Part shown: positions 2,956 through 62,185 of the stretch, in pieces | Position numbering within the stretch: the first letter of the stretch is position 1 | Layout of the letters: each line of letters starts with the position of its first letter | Source: Octopus vulgaris | Taxonomy: Eukaryota | DNA length: 64,000 bases | Direction: 5' to 3' | Assembly: GCA_951406725.2 (NCBI GenBank) | Contig: OX597820.1 | Span: forward strand, 23,002,001 to 23,066,000 | Notes under the pieces: generated by a model | What the model saw: only the letters and a program-made list of their open reading frames with translations | Told to the model about the DNA's origin: nothing | Database searches by the model: none | Translations under genes and position numbers: made by a program

Positions 2956-4073
2956 CATGAGGTCTGTCCAAAAAGACACTGAACTTTTAAAACTGCTGTG
3001 TATGGGTGATTTTAAACTTCAGTTCAATTAATAATAGTCACATTACGCCATGTCAGTTAGTCGCTAATCTACATGTGCTACATTAAATGTATGTTTAGTG
3101 TACTTGGTAATTTTTCGCAAAGGTGAATAATGAAGGGTCCCAAAGAGCAAAATGCTTGTGCAAAAATACTTGTTTCAAACTGGGAAAGACTTTTATAGAT
3201 ATGTTTCTAACATTGCAACAGACCTATGGGGAAGATTATTTGAGCTGTAAGCAATGCTACAAATGGTACAAGTATTTCAAATTGGCAAGAACATCCACCA
3301 AAGATGATTGAAAATCTAGACAACAAGAAAATTGTTGCATGAACTGTCTGTGAAGCTTCAAAGATAGGCATCTGTAAAAGTAAATACCAAATGATTTTAA
3401 AAGATAAATTGACAATGCAACAGGTTATGCTGAATATGTACTGCATCTAATAACAGACGATGTGAAAGAGAATCAGATCGCATTTAGTCGAGAGTGTTTG
3501 ATAGTTTGAATGTTGATGGAAACTTTTTGTACTGTGTCATAGCAAGTGAGGAAGCATAGATGTGTGATTATGATGTTGAAACAAAGAAGCAGTCATCCCT
3601 ATGGATTTGGATCATCATGGCTATAACTGAAGAAGTACATCAGTCAAATATAATTAATTAGAATGGTGTCATTCGTAACAAGTCTGTTCCCTTCCTGACA
3701 CATTTGAGAGGGGTAGCATAAAGAGGACAAAGGCTAGAACAAATGAAACTTGGATGCTACACCAGTTAAAACACACCTACTCTGTGTTATTCTTTATCCA
3801 TGATTTTTTTTTTTACCCCATCGCCCAGAATTGGTCACTGTGGACTTGTTTTTGTTCCCAGAGTTCAAATCCAACCACAAAAATCACCAATTTCAAATTC
3901 ACTATAAGAAGTGCACACTACTTCTGAAAACACTTCCCAGGATACACTCCCAAACTAAAAAAACACATTGGGGAATTGTGTATCAACAATGGAGGGAATT
4001 ATTCAGGAGATAAGTCTGATTAAATTGTAAATAAAGCAATAAAATTTGTCTTCCAGTTTCTTTCTGAACAGAC
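2956..4073 (+). mobile_element. Heavily degraded mariner (Tc1/mariner) DNA transposon
   Basis: ORF 3123-3311 resembles the mariner HTH (CFKLGKTF...LQQTYGEDYLS...CYKWY...ARTSTKDD). 3545-3603 reads as decayed GDETW..YDVETKKQSS.W and ~3820-3875 as SPELVTVDLFLFP (SPDLAP.DFFLFP). TIR remnants GAGGTCTGTCCAAAAAG / CTTTCTGAACAGAC. Confidence 0.85.
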
Positions 4074-16362: not shown

Positions 16363-16970
16363 TCATCATTATTGTTTAACGTCCGTTTTCCATGCTGGCA
16401 TGGGTTGGACGGTTTGACTGGGGACTGGCAAGGTTTCTACAGCTGGGTGCCCTTCCTAACACCAACCATTCCAAGAGTGTAGTGGGTGCTTTTTATGTGC
16501 CACCAGCACAGGAGCTGGCCAGGGTGGGGACTGGCATCGACCATGATTGGATGGTGCTTTTTACATGCCATCAGTACAGGAGCCAACTGGGGAGGTGGGG
16601 GACTGGATGGCATTGACCACATTCAGATGGCGCTTTTTACATGCCAGCGGCACAGGGGGCCAGTCAGGCAGCAATGGCATCAACCCACGCTTCAATGGTG
16701 CATATTACGTGCCACCAGCACAGGTGTCAGTCAGGCGGCAGTGGCATCGGCCACAACTACAACTTACATATTCATTTCGATCTTAATTTGTTTTTGATTT
16801 CTGATTTTATTTGACTCAATAGGCCGCCCGATTATTCAAAAGTACTTTTAAATGGGCTGGTTATGCGACACTGGAATAGGCTACAGCTGTGATCCTACTT
16901 TACTTGCCAGGTCTTCTCAATCACAGCATATCTCCAAAGGACTCGGTCTCTTCTCATTGCCTCTTCGATT
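16363..16970 (-). mobile_element. 5'-truncated RTE 3'UTR copy
   Basis: Same 3'UTR and (ATG)n tail as 31430-32294. Other copies at ~12700-12880, 15025-15220, 42127-42368, 43364-43740, 45708-46060, 47500-47742, 51560-51855, 54080-54610, 59148-59560 and 59820-60020. Confidence 0.8.
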
Positions 16971-17133
16971 GCCTATACATAATCAACTGAAATTGTGAGG
17001 ATAATCTGGTGCTTGACTGAGAAAAGAAAACTTCGAATGACCCATTATTGTTTTCTTTGTATCGTCTATCTGGACGTTTTGTTATCCCATTTTTGTATCA
17101 CCTAGCTGTCCAGATGCTTTGCACTCTAGTCCC

Positions 17134-17207
<74 letters not shown>

Positions 17208-17317
17208 TGTATGTATGTATGTATACATATATACATATCAGGGTGCAGGTGTTAATATATAGAAATATGACAAAAATCCATAGCTGTGAAAGATTTCAAA
17301 ACATTTATAAAGACAGG

Positions 17318-17365
17318 GCCTTACAGCTGTTCCCAGGATATTTTATAAATCCCTTCATCGGAGAC
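17318..17365 (-). ncRNA. Minimal type I hammerhead-ribozyme-like motif (degenerate, A13G), inverted partner of 17509-17556
   Basis: Reverse complement GTCT-CCGATGA-AGGGATTTATAAAATATCCTG-GGAA-CAGCTG-TA-AGGC. Confidence 0.55.
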
Positions 17366-17508
17366 AGTGTAAGAAAATGGTTATGCTTAAATAATGGAAC
17401 TGCAGATACAATATACCTACATATTTCACGTCTGTTTTCATTCCTTCACTTCATTCTCTATTTCACATCTTCTCTAGAATAACTATTGCTTAACCATTCT
17501 CTCGCACC

Positions 17509-17556
17509 GTCTCCAATGAAGGTATATATAAAATATCCCTGAAACAGCTGTAAGAC
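17509..17556 (+). ncRNA. Minimal type I hammerhead-ribozyme-like motif (degenerate, G5A)
   Basis: GTCT-CCAATGA-AGGTATAT/ATAAA/ATATCCCT-GAAA-CAGCTG-TA-AGAC: stem I GTCT/AGAC, stem II, palindromic stem III, GUA cleavage triplet. Confidence 0.6.
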
Positions 17557-17870
17557 CTCATTATAAATGTTCTGAAATATTTCACAGCCTTGGATTTTTA
17601 TCTCATTCTATGAACTTTATATATATATATATATATACACATCTATATATGCTTAAATATATATACATAAACATATCTACATACATATACACAGAGATAT
17701 ATCGACATACATATACATAAATATAGATACATATAAACACAAAAATATATACATACATATATACAAATATATATATACATATACATGTTTATATATATAT
17801 GTACATACACTTATACATACAAATAAACATACATATATATATGCATATACATACAAACATATACGCGTTT

Positions 17871-18316
17871 ACTCTTTTACTTGTTTCAGTCATTTGACTG
17901 TGGCCATACTGGAGCACTGCATTTAGTCAAGCAAATCATTGCCAGGACGTATTCTTTGTAAGCCAAGTACATATTATATCCGTCCTTTTGCTGAACTGCT
18001 AAGTAACAGGGAGGTAAACACACCAGCATCGGTTTTCATGCGATGTTGGGGGGATGGCATACAGCTGTAGAAACTCTGCCAAATCAAGACTGGAGCCTGG
18101 TACAGCCATCTGGTTCGCCAGCCCTCAGTCAAAATCATCCAAGCCATGCTAGCATGGAAAGCGGACGTTAAACGATGATGATGATGATACAGACTTGTAT
18201 ACAACGGGTTTCTTTCAGTTATCATCTGTTAAATCCACTCACAAGGCTTTGGTCGACCCGAAACTATAGTAGAAGACACATGCCCAAGGTACCACACAGT
18301 GGGACTGAACCCACAG
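17871..18316 (-). mobile_element. Family 1 SINE with an RTE 3'-end inserted in opposite orientation (~18055-18188)
   Basis: SINE sequence is interrupted by GGCATACAGCTGTAGAAAC...CGGACGTTAAAC(GAT)n. Confidence 0.75.
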
Positions 18317-26511: not shown

Positions 26512-26624
26512 ACGGTATTCCGTGCCCAGTGTCAACTCGAATTCTTAGGTTGGTCCGCATTTACAAGACAAAAAAAGCGGCAGCATCGCCAACTAGAAAC
26601 GTATTAAATGACATATCATCTTAC

Positions 26625-26864
26625 CTGAGGGGTGGTGGCTTGCAACTGTTTTTGAAATGCGTCCCTTTCTCTTTCAACTTCACCTAGTTTTGCTTGGCCT
26701 AGACTGTAAGCTTCTTGGGTCTCACGTAAGGTTTCCATCAACTTGTCGCGCTCGTCCAACATGTTAACCATAAGCTGTTCGAAATTAGCATCATCTTGAG
26801 CACCCTGAGCTTCCCGGTCATTCGACCCATCTTCCGAAATCGTTGGCATCACGTCACACATCAT
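26625..26864 (-). CDS. Liprin-alpha: Liprin-alpha (PPFIA/syd-2 family), first coding exon (80 codons, phase-0 donor)
   Basis: Translation MMCDVMPTISEDGS...ANFEQLMVNMLDERDKLMETLRETQE...LGEVERERDAFQKQLQATTPQ matches the conserved liprin-alpha N-terminus (MMCEVMPTISE...FEQLMVSMLEERDRLL.TLRETQE). Start context TTCAAAATG. The exon ends at CAG|GTAAG (GT at 26624-26623), so the ORF-track 'VR*' is intronic read-through. Confidence 0.96.
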
Positions 26865-27259
26865 TTTGAATGCTTTATATTATGAAGAACTCTACACACG
26901 ATAAATTTAAGGGGAAAATATCCGAATGAAATGGCTCTTTTGGTTTTCTAATCCTTTTTTAAATATCTTCTCTCTTTTAAAAAGTAAAAATTCCTACTAA
27001 CCACCACCACAGGGAAAGATCATACACAAACTGTTGTTATAATTCTAGGTAAAACACACACTCCACAGAGATCCGCCTACGTTTATCCATATTTTCTGCA
27101 ACATAAAATCCTAATCTTTCCGTTTAGATATGTCATGAAAATGTACATCTCTCTCATCTCAAGTTTATGTGACAAGAATCGTTGAGAATCATACTGAGGG
27201 GCTCCGGTGTCCTTCCCAGAGAGGGCAGTAACAGTTATCCCTCACACAGAAACCCTTTC

Positions 27260-61630: not shown

Positions 61631-62185
61631 TATTGGGTTGTCTGGAAAGTTCATGCCAATTTTTAAAGGAAAGAAAAAGGTCAATAAAGACTTGCCATTA
61701 CATTTTTAATCAACCAAATATGAACCATTTTGTAGCACAATGCATCTCCATCTTTCCTTTAACTTGAAAATACCCTCTTCCCTGAATTGAGGTGGTTTCA
61801 TGGCAAATAATTCATCAAGGTATCTTTTTACATCATCCAAGGAATTGAAATTTTTACCATTAAGACTATTCTGCAGAGACCTGAATAAGTGGAAATCTGG
61901 TGAATATGGAGGGTGGGGTAACACATCCCAGCCAAGCTGCAGCAATTTTTGTCTGGTTCCCAAAGCATCAAGTGCCAAAAATGAGCTTTCTTATCTTCCA
62001 TTTTAAAGGGTTACAGAATTAACACAGGTTATAGGAACATAAATCTTCTTCCACGAAAAGATAGCTTTAACTGTGCTCTAAATGGAGGTGTAGTCAAATC
62101 CTATTTTATGGACTCAACCATGTTCTAAAATAAGTCGAAAGGTAAGCTACTATAAATCGGCACGAACTTTCCGGACAACCCAATA
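61631..62185 (-). mobile_element. Internally deleted mariner element with both TIRs and TA target duplication
   Basis: TA-TTGGGTTGTCTGGAAAGTTCATGCCAATTT ... AAATCGGCACGAACTTTCCGGACAACCCAA-TA. The N-terminus MEDKKAHFWHLMLW (ATG at 62001) is fused to the C-terminus TRQKLLQLGWDVLPHPPYSPD-FHLFRSLQNSL...WR..V.QNG.Y. Confidence 0.93.

What the first reader, a model, noticed from the sequence alone, without database searches (positions are those of the whole stretch)
17239..17616. Microsatellite-embedded inverted element carrying two minimal hammerhead ribozyme motifs
Seen: two ~115-bp inverted arms flanked by (TA)/(TG) tracts. Their consensus is GTCT-CCGATGA-AGGGATAT(ATAAA)ATATCCCT-GAAA-CAGCTG-TA-AGAC, i.e. 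stem I (GTCT/AGAC), core CYGANGA, an 8-bp stem II, GAAA, a palindromic stem III (ACAGCTGT) and a GUA cleavage site. Each copy has a different core lesion (plus copy G5A by CpG decay, minus copy A13G), so the consensus is intact apart from U4C. Established: Penelope-like elements carry minimal type I hammerheads with palindromic helix III that can act as dimers, often have inverted terminal arrangements, and some target microsatellites. Inference: a non-autonomous, ribozyme-bearing (retrozyme/PLE-MITE-like) cephalopod family. The 17318-17365 copy is in the sense orientation of the liprin-alpha pre-mRNA.
Basis: partly seen in the sequence, partly recalled or inferred. Interest (0 to 1): 0.75.

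Follow-up and report, generated by a model that had tools for sequence, protein, structure and literature searches.

The report
Hydra-clade Penelope stub with decayed hammerheads
The two mirror-image hammerhead motifs are decayed end pieces of a dead, abundant Penelope-like jumping gene, likely of the known Hydra group, that inserted back-to-back into a TA repeat inside an intron; this layout and ribozyme are already described, and only a common one-letter change in the ribozyme core looks unreported.

Summary
In detail: two head-to-head arms, each with a damaged type I hammerhead, in TA-rich repeats in a liprin-alpha intron. The reading 'non-autonomous retrozyme/MITE family' fails. Walking upstream in longer copies reaches a GIY-YIG endonuclease and a reverse transcriptase with the motifs that define the Hydra clade of Penelope-like elements (DKT, CxCX5C, CxxC/CxH, no CCHH), a clade already reported from octopus with hammerheads and (TA)n targets. 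Junctions differ at every locus; 58 of 67 pairs join a long-tailed arm to a short arm, and only 30 of 67 keep two whole ribozymes: stubs made anew at each insertion. The motif is genuine across families (18 of 20 sister loci, 1 of 1000 shuffles, stems covary), but copies of this family decay neutrally (core 3.7% vs flank 5.0%, p=0.30). Both local copies carry core lesions, lie on opposite strands and are predicted to pair with each other. Minor novelty: C at core position 4 is the commonest allele here and in a second lineage with open reading frames. The scan noted this kind before on other DNA.

The parts
17136..17238 (.). (TA)n/(TG)n/(TATG)n microsatellite, left side of the target
17239..17262 (-). 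Poorly alignable end of the minus arm; possibly a decayed start of the optional tail (unresolved)
17263..17386 (-). Inverted 5'-truncated copy of the element's 3' end, -64 to +59 relative to the predicted cut site, 88% identical to the mapping reference
17318..17365 (-). Minimal type I hammerhead, sense to liprin-alpha pre-mRNA; C4, A13G, C>T at the base of stem II, A>T in stem II, A>G in stem I
17381..17386 (.). Head-to-head junction; the two arms overlap by about 6 nt
17381..17617 (+). 5'-truncated copy of the element's 3' end from -171, ending at the short (tail-less) 3' end, 90% identical to the mapping reference
17509..17556 (+). Minimal type I hammerhead; C4, G5A (17515), G>T in stem II (17523), G>T at 17540; predicted cut after 17552
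17618..17864 (.). (TA)n-rich degenerate microsatellite, right side of the target; no target-site duplication can be read
26625..26864 (-). Host context: liprin-alpha exon for residues 1-80; the insertion lies in the following intron of about 129 kb

Best explanation
The feature is two 5'-truncated 3' ends of an abundant, now broken Penelope-like retrotransposon, likely of the Hydra clade, that were likely reverse-transcribed separately and joined head-to-head in a (TA)n tract during one insertion; the hammerhead is the element's normal end-repeat ribozyme carried along as a passenger and is predicted to be inactive at this locus. Shown: the arm is collinear with 3' UTR, GIY-YIG and RT in longer copies; two preferred 3' ends about 155 nt apart; one of each in most pairs; variable junctions; neutral decay. 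Inferred: the endonuclease nicks both strands of the TA target, the RT starts at two internal RNA sites (as shown in vitro for an anole element), both cDNAs stop early and are joined, often through a few shared bases. In the active ancestor the ribozyme likely worked weakly, as a dimer through its palindromic helix III or with help from the element's protein.
For: Longer copies run from RT (GLYRDD in 9 distinct hits) through the linker and GIY-YIG to the hammerhead arm; nearest full-length database proteins share the layout. Hydra motifs DKT, CxCX5C, CxxC, CxH present and no cysteine pair inside GIY-YIG (against PMC8557442 section 11). That paper's File S2 lists 26 Hydra hammerhead rows, several with helix III reading ACAG..CTGT and an extra base on both sides at the foot of helix II, and File S1 lists an octopus family with (TA)n preference. 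58 of 67 pairs are long+short; whole ribozymes in both arms 30, one arm 23, neither 14. A TA-type repeat follows the 3' end in 77 of 93 copies. Sister families end at about 20-60 or 155-220 nt after their cut site (10 of 10 loci looked at). A 3-nt indel differs between the arms in 12 of 28 pairs, the window's included, so one arm is not a faithful copy of the other. Core 18/484 vs flank 137/2758 changes, p=0.30. Sense ribozyme 91% paired with the antisense arm in the folded pre-mRNA strand. No open frame above 357 aa in 30 RT-bearing copies.
Against: The window's pair was scored short+short, a minority class (2 of 67), so its tail is lost or never present. Clade assignment rests on motifs; no tree with reference Hydra, Neptune or Nematis proteins was built. 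The RWK motif was seen only in two damaged forms. Pfam support is weak (GIY-YIG E=0.015, below cut-off; no RT hit). The indel discordance could come from slippage at a CT repeat rather than from two syntheses. A crude core-vs-flank test was significant (3.8% vs 7.1%, p=0.0002) before subfamily columns and alignment edges were removed. The tail here (about 155 nt) is longer than the 30-40 bp in print.
Confidence: 0.9

Rival explanations
1. A non-autonomous retrozyme- or MITE-like family: the fold-back unit is itself transcribed, processed by its ribozymes and re-inserted by a partner element.
For: Most copies are short and ORF-less; 42 of 93 anchored arms have an inverted partner. Animal retrozymes are argued to derive from pLTRs (10.64898/2026.07.22.740005, first fifth of the text read).
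Against: Junction coordinates of the 67 pairs are spread from -329 to +168 with hardly any repeat; 37 of 67 lack one or both ribozymes; no head-to-tail arrays of the arm were seen in the loci examined; the same end is attached to RT-EN; opposite strands forbid excision of a circle.
Confidence: 0.05
2. The inverted arm arises by fold-back (self-priming) copying of the first strand or of an antisense template, as proposed for rotifer Penelope elements, rather than by two separate priming events at the target.
For: Palindromes at inverted junctions in PMC3846280 (passages); several pairs here have nearly symmetric junctions (for example -83/-86, -61/-64, 23/23); the C/A marker and the position-4 state agree between arms.
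Against: Most junctions are asymmetric, the long arm holds sequence the short arm lacks, and a 3-nt indel differs between arms in 12 of 28 pairs.
Confidence: 0.15
3. The minus copy has been co-opted to cleave or regulate liprin-alpha pre-mRNA.
For: It is in sense orientation inside an intron of the gene.
Against: A13G core lesion plus stem damage; folds no better than shuffles (z=0.64); predicted to be locked in a long duplex with the other arm; 12% diverged like any dead copy.
Confidence: 0.02

Closest known systems
Hydra clade of C-terminal EN+ Penelope-like elements, incl. Hydra-1_Obim of Octopus bimaculoides (PMC8557442; section 11, introduction, passages, Files S1/S2 read)
   Same: RT then GIY-YIG; DKT, CxCX5C, CxxC and CxH motifs; no CCHH; hammerhead near the 3' end with extra bases at the foot of helix II and ACAG..CTGT-type helix III; (TA)n targets; inverted 5'-truncated copy and one-sided tail.
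   Different: A different family: its ribozyme shares no stem sequence with the Hydra-1_oBim row; longer (about 3.7 kb shared between the two longest copies, against <3 kb); C4 is the commonest core state, whereas all 26 Hydra rows in File S2 have U4; tail about 155 nt.
Minimal PLE hammerheads (PMC4209133; parts 1-2 of 4 of the text and part of the supplement read)
   Same: Type I, short helix I (4 bp), long helix II (7 bp), extra base after A9, G-C first pair, palindromic helix III, mostly single motifs or opposite-strand pairs 100-700 bp apart from truncated elements.
   Different: C4 core, and an extra G before GAAA opposite the extra A; no CCGA core turned up in the supplement's text search or in the alignment rows seen (one supplementary file could not be searched).
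Poseidon element of Anolis carolinensis (PMC11167929; parts 1-2 of 4 read)
   Same: Two internal RT start sites explain the optional tail; both target strands cut and extended; AT-rich targets.
   Different: Other clade; there the ribozyme overlaps the ORF start, cleaves only with protein and is not needed for insertion in vitro; none of this was tested here.
Metazoan non-LTR retrozymes (PMC7229834; passages read)
   Same: ORF-less repeats with type I hammerheads.
   Different: Those are head-to-tail arrays of 150-450 bp with canonical ribozymes giving circular RNA; this is head-to-head, variable, and attached to an RT-EN element.

Membership tests
Hydra-clade PLE | Single ORF with RT and C-terminal GIY-YIG | tested here: met
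   Collinear but broken in L096/L097; aligned to P0004 over 676 and 506 of 803 positions
Hydra-clade PLE | DKT in place of DKG | tested here: met
   3 DKT, 1 DKA among 4 readable copies; DKT in 8 of 8 sister proteins
Hydra-clade PLE | CxCX5C linker; CxxC and CxH around the conserved E and N; no CCHH | tested here: met
   CNCRPGTxC, CKLC, CNH; one cysteine at most between VIY and YIG. The CxCX5C pattern was found in only 1 of 8 sister proteins with my strict pattern
Hydra-clade PLE | N-terminal RWK motif | tested here: inconclusive
   Two damaged readings only (stop or R at the W); sister proteins read RWA/RWL
Hydra-clade PLE | Hammerhead near the 3' end; (TA)n insertion | tested here: met
   (77 of 93 copies end in a TA-type repeat)
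Hydra-clade PLE | Phylogenetic grouping with reference Hydra elements | not tested
   Tree held only sister families and four unnamed proteins
Neptune/Nematis PLE | CX2-5CxxC linker and CCHH motif | tested here: not met
   my working label 'Neptune' (notes) was dropped
EN+ PLE insertion structure | Inverted 5'-truncated copy, optional tail at one end | tested here: met
   58 of 67 pairs long+short; described in PMC8557442 and PMC3846280
Minimal type I hammerhead | Core CUGANGA, GAAA, UH | tested here: inconclusive
   Family majority has C4 (a U4 class exists); the two local copies also carry G5A or A13G; 27 of 69 copies match the majority core
Minimal type I hammerhead | Helices I-III with covariation, palindromic helix III | tested here: met
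   Helix I and II sequences differ wholly between families yet pair; helix III middles differ and stay palindromic (0-1 mismatch); 18 of 20 loci vs 1 of 1000 shuffles. The descriptor was tuned after seeing hits, and the loci stand for about five lineages
Minimal type I hammerhead | Self-cleavage | not testable with these tools
   needs an in vitro assay
Non-LTR retrozyme | Head-to-tail arrays of short ORF-less units | tested here: not met
Non-LTR retrozyme | Circular RNA | not testable with these tools
   only contig-level runs offered
MITE | Uniform length, fixed terminal inverted repeats, target-site duplication | tested here: not met
   variable junctions and two alternative ends; no duplication readable in TA repeats

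The most novel reading that the evidence does not exclude
Two separate octopus Hydra lineages, one still with open reading frames and 652 exact hits, spread mostly from masters whose hammerhead has the weakened C4 core while keeping a perfect palindromic helix III. The conserved job of the motif would then be not cutting but pairing two element RNAs through helix III, so that a dimeric protein primes both target strands, each on its own template and start site, which would explain the one-long-one-short rule and arms that differ in an indel.
Probability: 0.12. Interest if true: 0.6.

Novelty: new member of a known kind. Interest (0 to 1): 0.24.

Why it matters
As a locus it matters little: a dead transposon stub in an intron. 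As a family it adds a molluscan member to a small clade, and gives numbers that bear on two open points about Penelope-like elements: how the inverted insertions are made (58 of 67 long+short) and whether the ribozyme must cleave (C4 masters were successful twice). The sister families with intact frames in this genome are better material for such tests than this family.

Tried and rejected
Rfam scan: only microsatellite-driven miRNA hits, no hammerhead. Pile-up of 5' ends at the cut site, which would have been a fossil of cleavage in vivo: 6 of 24 ends in the first sample (p=0.004, noticed after the fact) but 0 of 48 in independent arms, expected 2.4: rejected. 'U4C is fixed' (my note): rejected. 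'U4 copies are only CpG decay': partly rejected; T exceeds A at that CpG (39 vs 12, p=0.0002) though not in my fetched arms (41 vs 29, p=0.19), and U4 agrees between the arms of a pair ([[34,2],[2,5]], p=0.0004) while five CpG control positions do not. 'Neptune clade': rejected after reading PMC8557442 section 11. Link between the 3-nt indel and long or short ends: none (p=0.17). First hammerhead descriptor missed sister ribozymes because helix II loops were capped too short. PDB and Pfam did not name the liprin exon. Expression: no RNA holder on record; laid contigs were mostly other family copies, so no evidence either way. Single-strand folding of 48-mers is not better than shuffles (z 0.30, 0.64, -1.32), as expected for minimal motifs. 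The careful tree did not finish; the quick tree was used. Sequence look-up in earlier findings returned nothing. No structure or complex prediction was run.

Full report
Observation. Each holds a type I hammerhead outline: 17509-17556 (+), predicted cut after 17552, with G5A; and 17318-17365 (-), with A13G. Rfam does not recognise either. The liprin-alpha exon for residues 1-80 is at 26625-26864 on the minus strand and the next exon about 129 kb on, so the minus copy is sense in an intron.

The arm is a common repeat. The first search gave 2350 candidates, 40 scored; two flank words have 313 and 421 exact hits, reversed controls 0. With about 5% divergence per site this suggests somewhat over a thousand arms (my estimate). 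Contigs of a second organism label also carry the family. In 93 copies picked by a flank word outside the ribozyme, 69 span the motif; the foot of helix II is A.G in 54 and A-T in 3, so helix II is 7 bp plus a mismatch, not 8 bp.

It is the 3' end of a coding element. Three steps upstream lead through about 1 kb of 3' UTR to a GIY-YIG endonuclease, a cysteine linker, an asparagine-rich stretch, the RT thumb and the RT core. The two longest copies share about 3.7 kb and end in the hammerhead arm. All are broken: the longest open frame in 30 RT-bearing copies is 357 aa. Pfam is weak (GIY-YIG E=0.015), but four full-length database proteins share the layout. I first called it Neptune; section 11 of PMC8557442 defines the Hydra clade by DKT, CxCX5C, CxxC/CxH, RWK, loss of CCHH, hammerheads and (TA)n targets, and the copies show all of these except a readable RWK. 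The paper's supplement lists an octopus Hydra family with a hammerhead and 26 Hydra ribozyme rows, several with the same helix III and the same extra bases at the foot of helix II. The present family has different stems, so it is another member. No tree against reference clades was built.

The inverted unit is made anew at each insertion. Copies end at one of two places, about +65 or +220 from the cut site, followed by a TA-type repeat in 77 of 93. Of 67 head-to-head pairs, 58 join a long and a short arm, 5 mid+short, 2 short+short, 1 long+mid, 1 long+long; junctions range from -329 to +168; two whole ribozymes are present in 30, one in 23, none in 14. An inverted truncated copy and a one-sided tail are described in PMC8557442 and PMC3846280, opposite-strand minimal hammerheads 100-700 bp apart in PMC4209133, and two internal RT start sites with cutting of both strands in PMC11167929. 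A 3-nt indel differs between the arms in 12 of 28 pairs, including the window's, while another marker mostly agrees (34 of 39): the arms come from the same subfamily but are not faithful copies of one another, unless slippage is common there.

The ribozyme is real in the clade but a passenger here. A search with P0004 found many intact sister elements; 18 of 20 fetched loci have a sense hammerhead behind the ORF against 1 of 1000 shuffles, with wholly different but pairing helices I and II and different palindromes in helix III (descriptor tuned on these hits, about five lineages). Within this family the core decays like its flank once subfamily columns are removed (18/484 vs 137/2758 in 49 copies, p=0.30; the uncorrected test gave p=0.0002). 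Both local copies have core lesions, fold no better than shuffles, and in the pre-mRNA strand the sense motif is 91% paired with the antisense arm. A cluster of 5' ends at the cut site in the first sample (6 of 24) was not seen in independent arms (0 of 48).

The C4 core. Among the first 100 listed of 316 hits, 47 read CCG, 39 CTG, 12 CCA, 2 CTA (hand count); in my fetched arms 127 CCG, 39 CTG, 27 CCA of 217. U4 agrees between the two arms of a pair (p=0.0004) while CpG controls do not, so U4 and C4 masters both spread. A sister lineage with open frames of 778-786 aa has 85 CCG, 13 CTG, 2 CCA among 100 listed of 652. In a quick tree the two C4 lineages are separated by U4 lineages, which suggests two origins; the family's rows are partial. 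U4C is known from a viroid, where it lowers activity in vitro but allows infection (PMC3088659, passage). I did not find it reported for Penelope-like elements: searches; all Hydra rows in File S2 have U4; one supplementary file of PMC4209133 could not be searched, and figures are not held. PMC13282606 (passages) reports recently active Penelope families in Octopus vulgaris and does not mention ribozymes in its main text.

Verdict. A dead insertion stub of a new family in a known clade, with a known ribozyme type and known layout; the scan has described the same kind on other DNA several times. Interest 0.24. The boldest reading left open, that helix III pairing of two RNAs rather than cleavage is the conserved job, is untested (probability 0.12).

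Noticed in passing
L166-L185 (G000 C1, C2, C4, C5, C7, C14, C25, C31 and others): At least five lineages of Hydra-type elements with uninterrupted frames of 780-910 aa, near-identical copies and hammerheads with very long helix II extensions (40-60 nt); likely recently active and suitable for biochemistry.
   Followed up: partly
L171, L172, L177: Second lineage with C at core position 4 (85 of 100 listed hits of 652) and open frames.
   Followed up: partly
L167:399 (minus strand relative to its ORF): Another hammerhead family with a 10-nt near-palindromic helix III next to a sister element; parent not identified.
   Followed up: no
L193, L231, L239, L023 flanks: Ends of different Hydra families sit directly beside one another in the same TA tracts, suggesting shared or nested targets.
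   Followed up: no
L102:5247-6248: Fragment of a second Penelope-like element with a cysteine pair inside GIY-YIG (canonical type) on the opposite strand, next to a family copy.
   Followed up: no
L061, L096, L102 (between RT thumb and endonuclease): Asparagine/threonine-rich insert of about 100 aa, reminiscent of N-rich inserts reported for rotifer Penelope elements (PMC3846280).
   Followed up: no
family-wide, core position 4: C4 creates a CpG, so deamination in dead copies can turn the core into the canonical U4 form by mutation alone.
   Followed up: partly
window 26622-26879 and C7 22687391-23028864: Liprin-alpha spans about 340 kb; the intron after the exon for residues 1-80 is about 129 kb.
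   Followed up: partly
window 61709-61990 (-) and 3111-4010: Frames resembling mariner transposase fragments (recalled likeness, not searched).
   Followed up: no
window 16844-17130 and 17868-18200: Flanks are themselves very high-copy repeats (depth); the insertion sits between other mobile elements.
   Followed up: no
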